This document shows positions 1 through 2,218 of a stretch of DNA of 2,218 nt, piece after piece. The notes under the pieces were generated by a model. It saw nothing but the letters and a program-made list of their open reading frames with translations. It searched no databases and was not told where the DNA came from. The stretch lies in the IMG/VR virus record IMGVR_UViG_2698536508_000032; one strand, written 5' to 3'. How positions within the stretch are numbered: the first letter of the stretch is position 1; the number at the start of each line of letters is the position of its first letter. This DNA comes from a virus (Duplodnaviria; Heunggongvirae; Uroviricota; Caudoviricetes). The position numbers and the translations under genes were made by a program.

Positions 1-64
1 TGTGCCCCCATCGCTCTGATAGTCTGGTGTCGTCGGGTCCTTCCTGGAATTATGGCCCGTTACG

Positions 65-76
65 GGGCGGCGACCT
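65..76 (+). other. cosN core, 12-nt cohesive-end sequence GGGCGGCGACCT (copy 1)
   Basis: Exact match to the 12-nt lambda cohesive end, flanked by gttacg on the 5' side and cgcgg on the 3' side as in lambda. Confidence 0.8.
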
Positions 77-115
77 CGCGGTTTTTATCTGTTTATGAGA
101 ATTTTCCGGCAAAAG

Positions 116-132
116 TCAGATCCGATCTTCTT
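116..132 (+). repeat. cosB R3-like terminase small subunit binding element (tcagatccgatcttctt)
   Basis: Occupies the position of lambda R3 (CGTTTCCGTTCTTCTTCG) in the colinear alignment. Its core is AGATCC instead of GTTTCC. Contains two GATC sites (119-122 and 124-127). Confidence 0.6.
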
Positions 133-169
133 CTCTGTAACAGACTGTTTAACAATGAAAATATTAAAA

Positions 170-186
170 AAAGAAAGGATCTGACA
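170..186 (-). repeat. cosB R2-like element, inverted relative to R3 and R1 (minus strand gtcagatcctttctttt)
   Basis: Plus strand reads aaagaaaggatctgac, in the position and orientation of lambda R2 (AAAGAAAGGAAACGACAG). Its reverse complement shares the 12-mer cagatcctttct with R1. Contains GATC at 178-181. Confidence 0.6.
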
Positions 187-214
187 CGAGGCATTTTAGC
201 CAGAAAATGCCATT

Positions 215-231
215 ATCAGATCCTTTCTCAT
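215..231 (+). repeat. cosB R1-like element (atcagatcctttctcat)
   Basis: In the position of lambda R1 (CTGTCGTTTCCTTTCTC). Shares cagatcctttct with inverted R2. Contains GATC at 219-222. Followed by a T-rich tract as in lambda. Confidence 0.6.
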
Positions 232-255
232 TTTTGTTCAATAATTGCGCGTCTG

Positions 256-798
256 TTACTCGCCTTTCTTCTGTAGCAACTTTTCCGGTACGTTTCCGGT
301 TGTTTCTTTCAAGTAATCAGCCAGTATCTGTGGGAGGTTGTCGGCAACTCTGGCACTGGCATTACAGGCTTTAACCACTTCCCTTTTAAGCCTGTCCAGC
401 ATGGCGGGGGTAATCTGTGGGAAGCTCCTTTGCATAGTAAGCGGGAGGATGTCCATGATTGATGAAATCTGACTCGCCAGCTTTGAAAGCGCGTACAGGC
501 AAAACTCAGTATCAATCACGTCACCGCGATCGCGATCGTTTTTAAGTTCCTGCGCCTCTGCCTGTGCTGTCAGTAATCTGATCCTGACTCGTAAAAGTTC
601 ATCATCGTCAATCTCGCCTTTGTCGTTTATAAGCTGGCTAATTGCATTGTTAACCCTATTTTCTATCACGCTGGCAACATCATAAAACGCCTCACGGCCT
701 TTACGCTCAACGGGAGTTACTCCCCACTTGTCGAACGCTGTCGCACTTACACGGCAGCTTTTCGCCATGTTTTTTTTGTTCATCAGATGAGATTTCAT
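256..798 (-). CDS. nu1: Terminase small subunit, lambda Nu1 family (full length, 180 aa from the first ATG)
   Basis: The translation aligns along its whole length with lambda gpNu1 recalled from memory. Examples: N-terminal NKKNMAKSCRVSATAFDKW vs lambda NKKQLADIFGASIRTIQNW (winged-HTH region); RLLTAQAEAQELKNDRDRGDVIDTEFCLYALSKLASQISSIMDILPLTMQRSFPQ vs lambda RLTRAQADAQELKNARDSAEVVETAFCTFVLSRIAGEIASILDGLPLSVQRRFPE; and a conserved C-terminal region. Length (180 aa) matches lambda (181 aa). The start is ambiguous: in-frame ATGs at 796-798, 781-783 and a third further in, none with a strong Shine-Dalgarno sequence. Confidence 0.9.
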   Translation of the reverse strand: MKSHLMNKKNMAKSCRVSATAFDKWGVTPVERKGREAFYDVASVIENRVNNAISQLINDKGEIDDDELLRVRIRLLTAQAEAQELKNDRDRGDVIDTEFCLYALSKLASQISSIMDILPLTMQRSFPQITPAMLDRLKREVVKACNASARVADNLPQILADYLKETTGNVPEKLLQKKGE

Positions 799-799
799 T

Positions 800-837
800 A
801 ATACACCAACTTAATTACTGCTTCAGGTTGGTGTATT
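800..837. repeat. Perfect 11-bp inverted repeat (aatacaccaac, 16-nt spacer, gttggtgtatt) abutting the terS start codon
   Basis: The arms at 800-810 and 827-837 are exact reverse complements. On the minus-strand transcript one arm ends 1 nt before the ATG at 796-798. Confidence 0.5.
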
Positions 838-905
838 GCTTGCATCTTTCCCTTTTCATTCATAAAGATAGATCAAACAACAAAACCACCACCACCCCCC
901 TGAAA

Positions 906-975
906 AGGCTCATAAATAGCGAAAATCCGCGAGGTCTCCGCCCCGTAACAGGTCCATATGCCGGAAAGGACCCGC
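906..975 (-). other. cos: Lambda-type cohesive-end region, copy 2 (cosQ-side flank, cosN, I2-like), inverted relative to copy 1, upstream of terS
   Basis: The reverse complement of 911-975 reads gcgggtcctttccggcatatggacctgttacg|gggcggagacct|cgcggattttcgctatttatga. The 23-mer spanning cosN (gttacg through cgcgg) matches copy 1 (59-81) at 22/23 positions. The following 17 nt of I2-like flank differ from copy 1 at 4 positions but match the lambda sequence more closely, and the cosQ-side flank is about 80% identical to copy 1. Beyond that point (799-905) the sequence diverges from both lambda and copy 1 cosB. Confidence 0.7.
932..943 (-). other. cosN core copy 2, GGGCGGAGACCT on the minus strand (one substitution relative to copy 1)
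   Basis: Plus strand 932-943 is aggtctccgccc. Its reverse complement differs from GGGCGGCGACCT only at position 7 (C to A). Confidence 0.7.
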
Positions 976-998
976 AAAAAAGCCGGATTTCTCCGGCC
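976..998 (-). terminator. Candidate Rho-independent terminator downstream of the 137-aa ORF
   Basis: Minus strand reads ggccggagaaatccggctttttt: a perfect 6-bp GC-rich stem (982-987 pairs with 992-997), a 4-nt loop, then six T. It begins 6 nt after the stop of the 1004..1417 CDS. Confidence 0.6.
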
Positions 999-1003
999 TT
1001 GTC

Positions 1004-1417
1004 TCAGATGGTTTTCAGTATGCGATCGATGTCGCCGTCATCGCCCGGGTTTCTGCCATCGTATGCCATGCCAGCTGATACGGCTTGTGGGCTGTGCATG
1101 TCCATAAAGTTTTCAAAGGCTGCGGTAAGCTCTGGTGCAACCTTCGGGCGTTCCTGCTCTATGGTCATGTTCAGGATGTTTTTAGCCGTATCAACATCAA
1201 TACAAGGCACGTTTGCCATTGCACGTAACAGCGGCTGATAGTCGTCAGATTCATGAAGCGCCATAATCGCATCAGCGCGCGGCTTGTCCTTCTCTTCCAG
1301 GCTGTTAAGTTGATATACGGCCTCGTAGGTTGATAAACCTCTGTCAGCCATTGCCCGCGCTTCGGCTTTAAATTTACTCGCCAGCGGTAGCGTCATGATA
1401 CTTTCATTCGTTGCCAT
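1004..1417 (-). CDS. Hypothetical acidic protein (137 aa), translationally coupled downstream of the D-like gene; function unknown
   Basis: The start ATG at 1415-1417 is preceded by agggggaacg (Shine-Dalgarno GGGGGA) and lies 12 nt after the D-like stop. There is no frame conflict with its neighbours. Composition is acidic (about 23 D/E vs 14 K/R). No similarity to lambda FI, FII, W or Nu3 could be recognised by eye. Confidence 0.6.
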   Translation of the reverse strand: MATNESIMTLPLASKFKAEARAMADRGLSTYEAVYQLNSLEEKDKPRADAIMALHESDDYQPLLRAMANVPCIDVDTAKNILNMTIEQERPKVAPELTAAFENFMDMHSPQAVSAGMAYDGRNPGDDGDIDRILKTI

Positions 1418-1429
1418 CGTTCCCCCTGC

Positions 1430-1765
1430 TTATCGCGCCAGCGGCTGAACGGATACGCCAGAACCCGCAAAGGCGGCGCATTTTTTCGCGTCGGTGTCGG
1501 CGCTCTCAGGCCAGTTAACGGCGGCAATATTGAATATCCCCGTCTTGTAGCACTGTGCTGATTTCTGCGTCGACGTGTCCACGGGGTACGAGGTCAGATA
1601 AACAGCCTTGCCAGATTCCTGACCATCCCACGGCTTAAACTCGCCATTTTCCGCCAGCATCAGCGGGGTAAATTCCTGAATAACGCCAGCATCAGCAGCA
1701 AAATGTACCAGCGTCGTGGATACCTGCTGACTACCTGCAAATAACTCAATGTATGGAGTGTCCAT
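1430..1765 (-). CDS. D: Head decoration protein, lambda gpD family (111 aa)
   Basis: FTPLMLAENGEFKPWDGQESGKAVYLTSYPVDTSTQKSAQCYKTGIFNIAAVNWPESADTDAKKCAAFAGSGVSVQ aligns with lambda gpD [76 protein letters not shown] (from memory). Length matches gpD (110 aa). Shine-Dalgarno cggggggattct precedes the ATG at 1763-1765. Confidence 0.85.
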   Translation of the reverse strand: MDTPYIELFAGSQQVSTTLVHFAADAGVIQEFTPLMLAENGEFKPWDGQESGKAVYLTSYPVDTSTQKSAQCYKTGIFNIAAVNWPESADTDAKKCAAFAGSGVSVQPLAR

Positions 1766-1777
1766 AGAATCCCCCCG

Positions 1778-2218
1778 TTAACCAATTTTGACGATAACAA
1801 ATTTGCGAATATCTGCCGGTACCGGCTGCGGTGCGCTGTGCGTCTGCACGTACTCAATCGCCGGATCGCCGTCCTCAATCCAGTTTTTCGGGTAAAACAT
1901 GTTTTGCGTTGCGCCCGTTCTGACCGCTTCCTGATCCATAATCGCACCATAGGCCACCAGCCCTTTATTGTTGGTGTTACCCAGGACCAGCAAATCAGGC
2001 TCAAGGAAATATTTTTCGGTGCCGTCGCTGTCAGTGTATTTGCCGGAATAGACGACAAGGGCAATATCGCCCAGATAGCCTTTAAAGCTCACCACTTCAC
2101 CCAGGTTTTTACAGGCCAGTTCTGCGGCGTGAGGTAGCCTGAGTTTAACGGAAACTCCTTCCTGAAATAGAATGGCCTCAGAAGGAGCTAATAATGAGCA
2201 GAAAAACCCAACGTTACT
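1778..2218 (-). CDS. E: Major capsid protein, lambda gpE family, C-terminal portion (5' end lies beyond the window)
   Basis: The frame is open from the window edge to the stop at 1778-1780. LGEVVSFKGYLGDIALVVYSGKYTDSDGTEKYFLEPDLLVLGNTNNKGLVAYGAIMDQEAVRTGATQNMFYPKNWIEDGDPAIEYVQTHSAP aligns with the lambda gpE C-terminus LGKAVSYKGMYGDVAIVVYSGQYVENGVKKNFLPDNTMVLGNTQARGLRTYGCIQDADAQREGINASARYPKNWVTTGDPAREFTMIQSAP (from memory). The ORF-track start at 2095 is a GTG inside this longer open frame. Confidence 0.85.
   Translation of the reverse strand, partial: SNVGFFCSLLAPSEAILFQEGVSVKLRLPHAAELACKNLGEVVSFKGYLGDIALVVYSGKYTDSDGTEKYFLEPDLLVLGNTNNKGLVAYGAIMDQEAVRTGATQNMFYPKNWIEDGDPAIEYVQTHSAPQPVPADIRKFVIVKIG

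What the first reader, a model, noticed from the sequence alone, without database searches (positions are those of the whole stretch)
256..2218. Non-canonical module order (E, D, unknown, cos, terS) with no large terminase gene after terS
In lambda and its relatives the order is cos, Nu1, A, W, B, C/Nu3, D, E on one strand, with Nu1 and A adjacent or overlapping. Here the minus strand reads E, D, a 137-aa unknown gene, terminator, cos, Nu1-like terS, and then runs straight into cosB and cosN of copy 1 with no terL-like ORF; only 64 bp of the window remain beyond that cosN, so terL would have to lie across the cos site or elsewhere. The terS retains the C-terminal region that in lambda Nu1 contacts gpA. 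One hypothesis is a phage satellite (PICI-like or SaPI-like logic) that supplies its own small terminase subunit and cos specificity and recruits a helper phage's large terminase, possibly also remodelling capsids with its own E and D. A mosaic or rearranged prophage is equally possible. This is inference from gene order alone.
Basis: inference. Interest (0 to 1): 0.8.

Follow-up and report, generated by a model that had tools for sequence, protein, structure and literature searches.

The report
Packaging end of a known PICI satellite
The window is the DNA-packaging end of a well-catalogued E. coli phage satellite (a phage-inducible chromosomal island) that carries its own small terminase and cos sites and borrows the large terminase from a helper phage, so the "odd" gene order is the normal order for this kind of element.

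Summary
The minus strand reads E-like capsid gene, D-like decoration gene, a 137-aa gene, a terminator, a cos site and a full-length Nu1-type terS. A second cos follows, and there is no terL.

Three corrections apply:
- Only the last 117 codons of E are present, because an IS600 end occupies 2130-2218.
- The two cos copies are inverted relative to each other.
- The 137-aa gene is a homologue of the C-terminal part of lambda Nu3.

Positions 1-2129 are essentially identical to an 11.1-kb island between roxA and phoQ in E. coli O26:H11 11368. That island carries int, alpA, a RepA helicase, SSB and PerC, then E, D, the Nu3-like gene and terS, and is bounded by att repeats. It has no terL, portal, protease or tail genes. 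It is the EcCIRM12579 type of Gram-negative PICI, catalogued in 2018, and a sibling of EcCICFT073. In EcCICFT073 the same slot between two inverted cos sites holds rppA instead of terS.

The satellite hypothesis is therefore supported, and the element is already known.

New detail from this work: the cos upstream of terS is conserved together with the TerS DNA-binding domain. The inverted cos is optional and carries helper-phage-type cosB alleles. TerS-mediated packaging itself remains untested.

The parts
35..109 (+). Second cos (copy 1): cosQ-like GGGTCCT at 35-41, cosN with cohesive-end sequence GGGCGGCGACCT at 65-76, and an I2-like segment at 82-109. It is inverted relative to terS and occupies the same position as 'cos2' of EcCICFT073.
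   Evidence: Exact cosN match. Alignment to the lambda ends. Left arm of the 76-nt inverted repeat. Homologous to the CFT073 island from position 109 leftwards.
115..234 (+). Lambda-architecture cosB of copy 1: R3-like 115-132, AT-rich I1-like spacer, R2-like 168-185 (inverted), R1-like 216-234. The shared core is AGATCC. Offsets from the nick site are +50, +103 and +151, as in lambda.
   Evidence: Repeats I2, I3 and D10. Alignment with lambda and other loci shows coordinated allele changes in all three boxes. The same R boxes precede Nu1-A-B in genuine phages.
256..798 (-). Full-length Nu1-family small terminase gene (180 aa; alternative starts at 783 and 768). It has an N-terminal winged-HTH-like region and a C-terminal region aligned to the gpA-binding end of lambda Nu1, plus a 14-residue PICI-specific tail.
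   Evidence: PF07471 at 81 bits. phrog_57 at 2e-51 over residues 1-174. 36% identity to lambda Nu1 over residues 6-166 against 3-180. Best phage relative is N15 gp1 at 44%. Intact in 80/80 loci with dN/dS 0.16. No similarity to RppA or RppC.
799..926 (-). Island-specific cosB region between cosN of copy 2 and terS: I2-like 900-926, GGTGGTGGTGGTTTTGTT at the R3 position (879-896), and the inverted pair TACACCAAC/GTTGGTGTA at 826-835 and 802-810.
   Evidence: Nearly invariant in 44 distinct sequences from 68 loci, across TerS variants of 79-100% identity. Lies inside the segment that replaces the rppA cassette of EcCICFT073.
927..973 (-). Primary cos (copy 2): cosQ-like GGGTCCT at 967-973 and cosN with cohesive-end sequence GGGCGGAGACCT at 932-943. 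It sits about 150 bp upstream of terS, in the same position as the essential 'cos1' of EcCICFT073.
   Evidence: Found at the same offset in 68/80 loci. The cos1 sequence of EcCICFT073 printed in the supplement of PMC6739421 runs directly into the rppA start.
976..1000 (-). Intrinsic terminator after the 137-aa gene: AAGGCCGGA-GAAA-UCCGGCUU followed by U6.
   Evidence: Fold of 966-1006 on the minus strand gives a centroid of -14.1 kcal/mol. Conserved in CFT073.
1004..1417 (-). 137-aa protein homologous to the C-terminal ~85 residues of the lambda scaffold Nu3 (and protease gpC); equivalent to c1501 of EcCICFT073.
   Evidence: phrog_1999 at 4e-63 and phrog_53 'head maturation protease' at 7e-9, profile positions 494-567. 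Lambda Nu3 residues 117-200 hit phrog_1999 at 2.7e-26. Weak direct BLASTP to Nu3 residues 111-199. A 195-aa Nu3-like relative, P0041.
1430..1765 (-). Head decoration protein D homologue (111 aa); equivalent to c1500.
   Evidence: PF02924 at 65 bits. 38% identity to lambda D. phrog_49.
1778..2129 (-). 3' third (last ~117 codons) of a lambda-E-like major capsid gene; equivalent to c1499, truncated in this copy.
   Evidence: PF03864 profile positions 228-328 of 329. The intact 351-aa gene in O26 11368 is 44% identical to lambda E. Identity to E. coli genomes stops at 2129.
2130..2218 (+). Left end of an IS600-family (IS3-like) insertion sequence, with the orfA start at 2194 (MSRKTQRY...). It interrupts the E-like gene.
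   Evidence: 97-98% identity to thousands of IS copies annotated 'IS3-like element IS600 family transposase'. No complete E. coli genome or species-representative genome holds this junction.

Best explanation
The window is the distal, packaging and morphogenesis end of a classical Gram-negative phage-inducible chromosomal island (PICI). It belongs to the EcCICFT073/EcCIRM12579 lineage and sits between roxA (ycfD) and phoQ.

The island keeps a permuted subset of lambda head genes: E-like, D-like, a Nu3-C-terminal-like gene and a Nu1-like terS. It has no terL because it depends on a lambdoid helper phage for the large terminase, procapsids, tails and lysis.

Proposed mechanism. Only the gene content, genomic context and conservation patterns are shown here; every step below is inferred.
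1. After helper induction, the island excises and replicates as concatemers.
2. Its own Nu1-type TerS binds the island-specific cosB next to the cos just upstream of terS (copy 2). It does so through its near-invariant N-terminal winged-HTH domain.
3. TerS recruits the helper's TerL through its C-terminal domain.
4. TerL nicks the lambda-like cosN and packages island multimers into helper capsids.

The second cos (copy 1) faces the first across terS. It is an optional module with a phage-type cosB, of the AGATCC class in this window. It probably lets a helper holo-terminase of matching specificity package the island directly.

In this copy the E-like gene is destroyed by IS600. The equivalent gene was dispensable for transfer in EcCICFT073.
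For: Context:
- The window is about 100% identical to an 11.1-kb island with int, AlpA, RepA helicase, SSB, PerC, E, D, the 137-aa gene and terS.
- The island is bounded by GGACATATTT repeats, the att core published for EcCICFT073 and EcCIRM12579.
- The O26 11368 copy (1619447-1630554) is listed as a PICI in Table S2 of PMC6092414.
- EcCIRM12579 has the same genes, including the 180-aa terS.
- The order int, alpA, pri-rep, capsid, terS is the published PICI core order (PMC10085698).

Cassette swap:
- The island matches EcCICFT073 at 94% up to window 902 and again from window 109.
- The segment 110-901 (terS with both cosB regions) replaces the rppA segment.
- Both islands have inverted cos copies flanking that slot.

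TerS looks like a working full-length Nu1:
- It aligns end to end with lambda Nu1.
- It is intact in 80/80 loci, with dN/dS 0.16 overall and 0.10 in the DNA-binding domain.
- It never lies beside a terL.

cos:
- The upstream cos is at a fixed offset in 68/80 loci, with a nearly invariant cosB region.
- Of 69 loci long enough to judge, the inverted cos is absent in 39.
- Where present, it occurs as allele A (AGATCC, 14 loci) or allele B (CATGTCG, 16 loci).
- These alleles assort independently of TerS alleles.
- The AGATCC cosB precedes Nu1-A-portal in genuine phages.
- The CATGTCG type matches the cosB of the CFT073 icd helper prophage.
Against: - No experiment on this TerS type was found in the papers read. 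Binding of TerS to the proposed cosB and recruitment of helper TerL are inferred from homology alone.
- The published mechanism for the sibling island needs the helper's own TerS, in complex with Rpp. A similar dependence cannot be excluded here.
- The TerS C-terminal domain is only about 34-39% identical to those of candidate helper TerS proteins, so compatibility with a helper TerL is unproven.
- In EcCICFT073, deleting cos2 raised transfer by lambda and phi80. A second cos is therefore not always beneficial.
- No promoter-like site for terS was found between cosN and terS.
- The copy in the window carries an IS600 insertion and may be partly decayed.
Confidence: 0.85

Rival explanations
1. 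The island's Nu1-like protein acts like Rpp. It heterodimerises with the helper's TerS, blocks helper packaging and redirects the mixed complex to the island cos, so the helper TerS is still required.
For: - It occupies exactly the rppA slot between the same two inverted cos sites.
- Rpp proteins are thought to derive from TerS and share its DNA-binding fold (PMC6739421).
- The central coiled-coil region of this TerS is the part most similar to phage Nu1 proteins, at 38-44% identity.
Against: - Unlike Rpp (139-154 aa, no TerL-binding end; PMC9026076), this protein is full length. It aligns to lambda Nu1 through residue 180 of 181.
- It has no detectable similarity to RppA, and a phmmer search of the Protein Data Bank returned no Rpp chain.
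- Its C-terminal domain is conserved as a PICI-specific module, even when fused to a different DNA-binding domain. This suggests it has a function of its own.
Confidence: 0.25
2. The E-like, D-like and Nu3-like genes redirect helper capsid assembly to small, island-sized capsids, as Ccm of SaPIbov5 does. The module would then be mainly an interference and size-determination device.
For: - Three head-assembly homologues are kept together and conserved across islands.
- A capsid-protein homologue does this job in SaPIbov5, and a similar role is suspected in PmCI172 (PMC6092414).
Against: - In EcCICFT073 the island is packaged in phage-sized capsids, and deleting c1499 or c1500 gave no phenotype.
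- The E-like gene is disrupted by IS600 in this very copy.
Confidence: 0.12
3. The region is a scrambled remnant of a defective lambdoid prophage, not a satellite.
For: All four proteins are lambda head or packaging homologues in non-lambda order. An IS element is inserted.
Against: - The element is a discrete 11.1-kb unit with att repeats, its own integrase, AlpA and replication genes.
- The same order is found in hundreds of genomes, with intact genes under purifying selection.
- No other phage structural or lysis genes are present.
- The sibling island is experimentally mobilised by helpers (PMC6092414).
Confidence: 0.03

Closest known systems
EcCIRM12579 (E. coli O55:H7 RM12579) and the identical island of O26:H11 11368, catalogued in Fillol-Salom et al. 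2018 (PMC6092414, Tables S1 and S2)
   Same: - Same integration site (ycfD/roxA-phoQ) and same att core.
- Same gene order, ending in E, D, the 137-aa gene, the 180-aa terS and the 93-aa ORF.
- Window 1-2129 is about 100% identical to the O26 copy.
   Different: - The window's copy has an IS600 insertion in the E-like gene.
- It also has at least one amino-acid difference in E.
EcCICFT073, the experimentally studied E. coli PICI with RppA and two cos sites (PMC6092414, PMC6739421, PMC9026076)
   Same: - Same attachment site.
- 94% identical E, D and c1501 genes.
- Same pair of inverted lambda-like cos sites flanking one gene.
- The upstream cos is in the cos-terS-like position.
   Different: - The gene between the cos sites is rppA (144 aa, lacking the C-terminal region that in TerS binds TerL, and needing the helper TerS) rather than a full-length Nu1 homologue.
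- Both cosB regions differ.
- The (ACC)n element at the R3 position is present here as its reverse complement.
SaPI TerS-S of headful (pac) staphylococcal pathogenicity islands
   Same: The logic is the same: the satellite encodes its own small terminase, which recognises the satellite DNA and uses the helper's large terminase (as described in PMC6739421 and the cf-PICI preprint).
   Different: - That system is headful (pac), Gram-positive and has an unrelated TerS family.
- It needs Ppi to block the phage TerS.
- Here the TerS is Nu1-type and acts on a cos site, and no Ppi-like function has been identified.
Satellites that simply carry the helper's cos (P4; SaPIbov5)
   Same: Copy 1 of the window carries a complete phage-type cos, with a cosB class found in real phages.
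   Different: - That cos is optional here, being absent from 39 of 69 related loci.
- It is additional to an island-specific cos plus TerS.
Lambda cos-Nu1-A packaging module
   Same: - cosQ, cosN and I2 are nearly identical.
- terS lies about 150-190 bp from cosN.
- The TerS domain layout matches.
   Different: - No terL follows.
- E, D and the Nu3-like gene lie upstream of cos instead of downstream.
- E precedes D.

Membership tests
Classical Gram-negative PICI (Fillol-Salom 2018; de Sousa 2023 core set) | Integrase at one end and flanking att direct repeats at a specific chromosomal site | tested here: met
   A tyrosine integrase lies next to roxA. GGACATATTT occurs at L001 19116 and 30214, 11.1 kb apart, and this is the published att core. 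Tested in the identical O26 copy, not in the unknown source genome.
Classical Gram-negative PICI (Fillol-Salom 2018; de Sousa 2023 core set) | AlpA-type regulator followed by a primase/replicase module | tested here: met
   A 62-aa protein matches PF05930 Phage_AlpA. DUF4222 and a 466-aa RepA-family AAA_25 helicase follow, then SSB. The replication origin was not examined.
Classical Gram-negative PICI (Fillol-Salom 2018; de Sousa 2023 core set) | Capsid-morphogenesis homologue and small terminase at the distal end, in the order int, regulator, pri-rep, capsid, terS | tested here: met
   E-like, D-like and Nu3-like genes are followed by Nu1-like terS. The order is as described in PMC10085698.
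Classical Gram-negative PICI (Fillol-Salom 2018; de Sousa 2023 core set) | Small size (about 8-15 kb) and absence of terL, portal, protease, tail and lysis genes | tested here: met
   The island is 11.1 kb and none of these genes is annotated. No lambda A, B or C homologue lies inside the island in 80 related loci. The two loci with B and C hits are islands embedded in a prophage.
Classical Gram-negative PICI (Fillol-Salom 2018; de Sousa 2023 core set) | Helper-phage-dependent induction, replication, packaging and interference | not testable with these tools
   Shown experimentally only for the sibling EcCICFT073 (PMC6092414, PMC6739421).
Nu1-family small terminase (PF07471) | Profile match above the curated threshold over most of the protein | tested here: met
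   81.3 bits against a cutoff of 30, over residues 33-148. phrog_57 covers residues 1-174.
Nu1-family small terminase (PF07471) | N-terminal winged-HTH DNA-binding domain and C-terminal TerL-binding segment | tested here: inconclusive
   Both regions align with lambda Nu1, residues 6-166 against 3-180. No structure was predicted, and neither DNA binding nor TerL binding can be tested here.
Nu1-family small terminase (PF07471) | Encoded next to, and working with, a cognate large terminase gene | tested here: not met
   There is no terL in the island, nor within 6 kb in 80/80 related loci. This is a feature of phage context, not of the protein family.
Rpp (redirecting phage packaging) proteins | 139-154 aa, sequence related to RppA, RppB or RppC, and lacking the C-terminal ~30-40 residues of TerS | tested here: not met
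   The protein is 180 aa. BLASTP against RppA gives E = 3.2. A phmmer search of the Protein Data Bank returned no Rpp chain at E <= 1. The C-terminus aligns with that of lambda Nu1.
Lambda-type cos site | cosQ, cosN with the 12-nt cohesive-end sequence, and I2 at lambda spacing | tested here: met
   Both copies qualify. Copy 2 has one change, GGGCGGAGACCT.
Lambda-type cos site | cosB with R3, I1, R2 and R1 boxes | tested here: met
   Copy 1 has three AGATCC boxes in lambda orientation and spacing. Copy 2 has only a candidate R3 element and an inverted pair. In vivo cleavage is not testable.
Capsid-forming PICI (cf-PICI, EcCIEDL933 type) | Own terL, HNH, portal, protease, connectors and HK97-type capsid gene | tested here: not met
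   None of these genes is present. The capsid gene is lambda-E type.

The most novel reading that the evidence does not exclude
This reading has two parts.

1. The Nu1-type terS cassette would be a functional alternative to Rpp. The island's own full-length TerS binds an island-specific cosB and recruits the helper's TerL directly. That would make this PICI type independent of the helper's TerS and give a cos-type counterpart of the SaPI TerS-S strategy. It would be the more common solution in E. coli: 766 complete genomes carry it, against 269 with the CFT073 rppA cassette.

2. The second, inverted cos would be a swappable adaptor. Its cosB alleles copy those of particular helper-phage classes (AGATCC, 21-like CATGTCG). 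This would answer the published open question of why some PICIs have two cos sites.
Probability: 0.4. Interest if true: 0.55.

Novelty: already known. Interest (0 to 1): 0.3.

Why it matters
As a discovery it matters little. The element, its gene order and the absence of terL are what the PICI literature already describes, and the very island is listed in a 2018 supplement.

It does have value as a pointer. The packaging mechanism published for E. coli PICIs (Rpp) covers only one allele of the cassette between the two cos sites.

The comparative patterns found here give directly testable predictions about satellite-helper specificity:
- The TerS DNA-binding domain is conserved together with the upstream cosB.
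- The TerS C-terminal domain is variable.
- The second cos is optional and carries phage-class cosB alleles.

Tried and rejected
- **Structure and family searches.** phmmer of TerS and of the 137-aa protein against PDB sequences gave only chance hits and no Rpp or Nu1 chain. NCBIfam gave nothing for any island protein.
- **137-aa protein.** tblastn against 50,697 phage records found no match. Two large protein searches found only a narrow E. coli family, plus two distant relatives. The NCBI name 'phage head-tail connector protein' was considered and set aside in favour of the Nu3 link.
- **68-aa and 93-aa ORFs.** I tested whether they are lambda W, FI or FII homologues. They fall in different PHROG families, so this was rejected.
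- **Which cos TerS uses.** My first guess was that copy 1, with its three R boxes, is the site used by the island TerS. I rejected this because its alleles assort independently of TerS and it is absent from most related loci.
- **Identity with EcCIEDL933.** Rejected: that element is a cf-PICI.
- **Literature.** A search for 'EcCIRM12579' in the text library found nothing.
- **Genome scans.** Scans of species-representative genomes found no TerS relative and no copy of the IS junction. The source genome was therefore not identified. Shigella or an IS600-rich E. coli is only a guess.
- **Terminator scan.** The consensus scan missed the hairpin at 976-1000. It was confirmed by folding instead.


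Full report
**What is in the window**

The minus strand carries four protein-coding genes, in this order:
- The 3' end of a lambda-E-like major capsid gene, 1778-2129 (PF03864).
- A lambda-D-like decoration gene, 1430-1765 (PF02924).
- A 137-aa gene, 1004-1417, with no Pfam match.
- A 180-aa Nu1-family small terminase gene, 256-798 (PF07471, 81 bits against a cutoff of 30).

A hairpin with a GAAA loop and a U6 tail follows the 137-aa gene at 976-1000.

The lambda cosN core occurs twice, at 65-81 on the plus strand and at 927-943 on the minus strand. None was expected by chance. The two copies are the arms of a 76-nt inverted repeat. Both align with lambda cosQ, cosN and I2.

1. Identity to E. 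coli genomes stops at 2129. Positions 2130-2218 are the left end of an IS600-family insertion sequence. Only about 117 codons of E are present, and the gene is broken in this copy.
2. The two cos sites face each other across terS.
3. The unknown gene is not an orphan. It belongs to phrog_1999 and also hits the C-terminal part of the 'head maturation protease' profile. Lambda Nu3 residues 117-200 hit phrog_1999 at 2.7e-26. A 195-aa relative found in the representative search is a typical Nu3-like repeat protein. The gene therefore encodes a homologue of the C-terminal part of the lambda scaffold and protease.

**Context**

Window 1-2129 is essentially identical to a chromosomal segment in 492 complete E. 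coli genomes. In O26:H11 11368 it lies in an 11.1-kb island between roxA (ycfD) and phoQ. The island's genes, in order, are:
- integrase, AlpA, an Icd-like gene, DUF4222, a RepA-family helicase, SSB and PerC;
- a 68-aa ORF, E, D, the 137-aa gene, terS and a 93-aa ORF.

The island is bounded by GGACATATTT direct repeats. It has no terL, portal, protease, tail or lysis genes.

**It is a known element**

- GGACATATTT at ycfD-phoQ is the att core published for EcCICFT073 and EcCIRM12579 (PMC6092414, Table S1).
- The O26 11368 island at 1619447-1630554 is itself listed as a PICI in Table S2 of that paper.
- EcCIRM12579 has the same genes, including the 180-aa terS.
- The same paper states that some Gram-negative PICIs carry a terS homologue, while EcCICFT073 does not.
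- De Sousa et al. (PMC10085698) define the PICI core as integrase, regulator, primase-replicase, capsid-morphogenesis gene and small terminase, in that order.
- Capsid E homologues are present in 21 of 29 reference Gram-negative PICIs (PMC10111431).

The 'non-canonical' order is therefore the canonical PICI order.

**Relation to EcCICFT073**

The CFT073 island occupies the same site and has the same order: c1499 (E-like), c1500 (D-like), c1501 (137 aa), then rppA (c1503), then the 93-aa ORF.

The O26 island matches it at 94% up to window 902, and again from window 109 leftwards. The segment 110-901 has no DNA similarity to the rppA segment. CFT073 also has two inverted cos copies around that slot.

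The cos1 sequence printed in the supplement of PMC6739421 runs straight into the rppA start codon. The experimentally essential cos1 therefore corresponds to window copy 2, and cos2 corresponds to window copy 1.

TerS and RppA show no detectable similarity. TerS aligns with lambda Nu1 almost end to end, including the C-terminal part that in lambda binds gpA. Rpp proteins lack that part (PMC9026076). The closest phage TerS is N15 gp1, at 44% identity.

**Comparative evidence on function**

I fetched 80 IMG/VR loci encoding TerS relatives at 79-100% identity.
- All 80 have E-like and D-like genes upstream of terS, and none has a lambda-A-like terL within 6 kb.
- Two loci are islands embedded in a lambda-like prophage, and are followed by the lambda B and C genes.
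- All 80 terS genes are intact at 180 codons. dN/dS is 0.16 overall, 0.10 in residues 1-60 and 0.24 in residues 111-180. Variable positions are concentrated in the C-terminal third.

The cos upstream of terS sits at a fixed offset in 68 of the 80 loci. The 150 bp between cosN and terS is nearly invariant. It includes GGTGGTGGTTTTGTT at the position of lambda R3, and the element ACACCAACCTGAA. This matches the near-invariant TerS N-terminal domain. It makes copy 2 the likely site of action of the island TerS.

The inverted cos behaves differently.
- Of 69 loci long enough to judge, 39 lack it, 14 carry the AGATCC allele seen in the window and 16 carry a CATGTCG allele.
- Each allele shows coordinated changes in all three R boxes, at lambda spacing.
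- The same TerS allele occurs with either cosB allele, or with none.
- The AGATCC cosB occurs in genuine phages directly upstream of Nu1, terL and portal genes.
- The CATGTCG type matches the cosB of the CFT073 icd prophage, the helper of EcCICFT073.

Copy 1 therefore looks like a phage-type cos acquired as an optional module.

**Most likely mechanism**

After induction by a lambdoid helper, the island excises and replicates. Its TerS then binds the island-specific cosB at copy 2 and brings the helper's TerL to the lambda-like cosN. Island concatemers are packaged into helper capsids. Copy 1 additionally allows direct recognition by a helper terminase of the matching cosB class.

Gene content, context and conservation are shown. 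Binding, TerL recruitment and the use of each cos are inferred.

The main mechanistic rival is an Rpp-like mode, in which the helper TerS is still needed. A capsid-size role for the E, D and Nu3-like genes is possible. It is not supported by the EcCICFT073 data, where deletions gave no phenotype and capsids were phage-sized. It also sits poorly with the IS600 disruption of E in this copy.

**Novelty and score**

The element and its class are already known, so the finding ranks low as a discovery. The terS cassette is nonetheless more common than the studied rppA cassette in complete E. coli genomes. It occurs in 766 genomes against 269, or 595 against 53 at 80% or greater coverage. None of the papers read describes its function. 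They list helper cos carriage, SaPI TerS-S with Ppi, Rpp and cf-PICIs as the known packaging strategies. That gap, and the two-cos pattern, are the only parts with some residual interest.

Noticed in passing
window 2130-2218: The left end of an IS600-family element is inserted in the E-like capsid gene at about codon 235. No complete E. coli genome and no species-representative genome has this junction, so the source strain was not identified.
   Followed up: partly
window 771-778 (A8 run on the minus strand, codons 7-10 of terS); L038 and L039: Two related loci have A7 instead of A8. This puts the first ten codons out of frame, so translation would have to start at the ATG of codon 11 (MAKSC...). 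The true start codon of terS is therefore uncertain (798, 783 or 768).
   Followed up: partly
window 879-896 versus L004 7600-7620: At the lambda R3 position the terS-type islands have GGTGGTGGTGG. The Rpp-type EcCICFT073 cos1 has CACCACCACCAC, its reverse complement, at nearly the same distance from cosN. The meaning is unknown.
   Followed up: no
L100 and L105 (IMG/VR), terS genes of 194 aa: A second PICI TerS subfamily is chimeric. Its N-terminal ~105 residues resemble the 21-type phage TerS of the CFT073 prophage. Its C-terminal ~85 residues are 68-71% identical to the window TerS, including the tail ETTGNVPEKL, which is absent from phage Nu1 proteins. The C-terminal domain thus looks like a PICI-specific module joined to different DNA-binding domains.
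   Followed up: partly
L046 and L047 (IMG/VR): Copies of the island are followed directly by portal and protease genes. In L046 these are 99-100% identical to lambda B and C. In L047 they are 65% and 52% identical. These are helper-embedded PICIs of the kind described in PMC10111431.
   Followed up: no
window 1004-1417; proteins P0001-P0035: NCBI names many members of the 137-aa family 'phage head-tail connector protein'. Profile evidence here links the family to the C-terminal part of the lambda Nu3/gpC scaffold instead. No connector family was hit.
   Followed up: partly
L004 8090-8320 (EcCICFT073 cos2): The published papers report no recognisable cosB in EcCICFT073. Its cos2 nevertheless has three repeated ATGTCCGG/CCGGACAT boxes at R3-, R2- and R1-like positions, close to the 21-type boxes of its helper prophage.
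   Followed up: partly
L001 22833-23039 and 19719-20000: The 68-aa ORF overlapping the start of E (phrog_3255) and the 93-aa ORF beyond copy 1 (phrog_1561) are conserved in both terS-type and rppA-type islands. Neither has a known function or a lambda counterpart.
   Followed up: partly
E. coli complete genomes: The terS cassette is found in 766 of 5426 complete genomes, against 269 for the CFT073 rppA cassette. No close TerS relative was found in the one-genome-per-species collection.
   Followed up: yes
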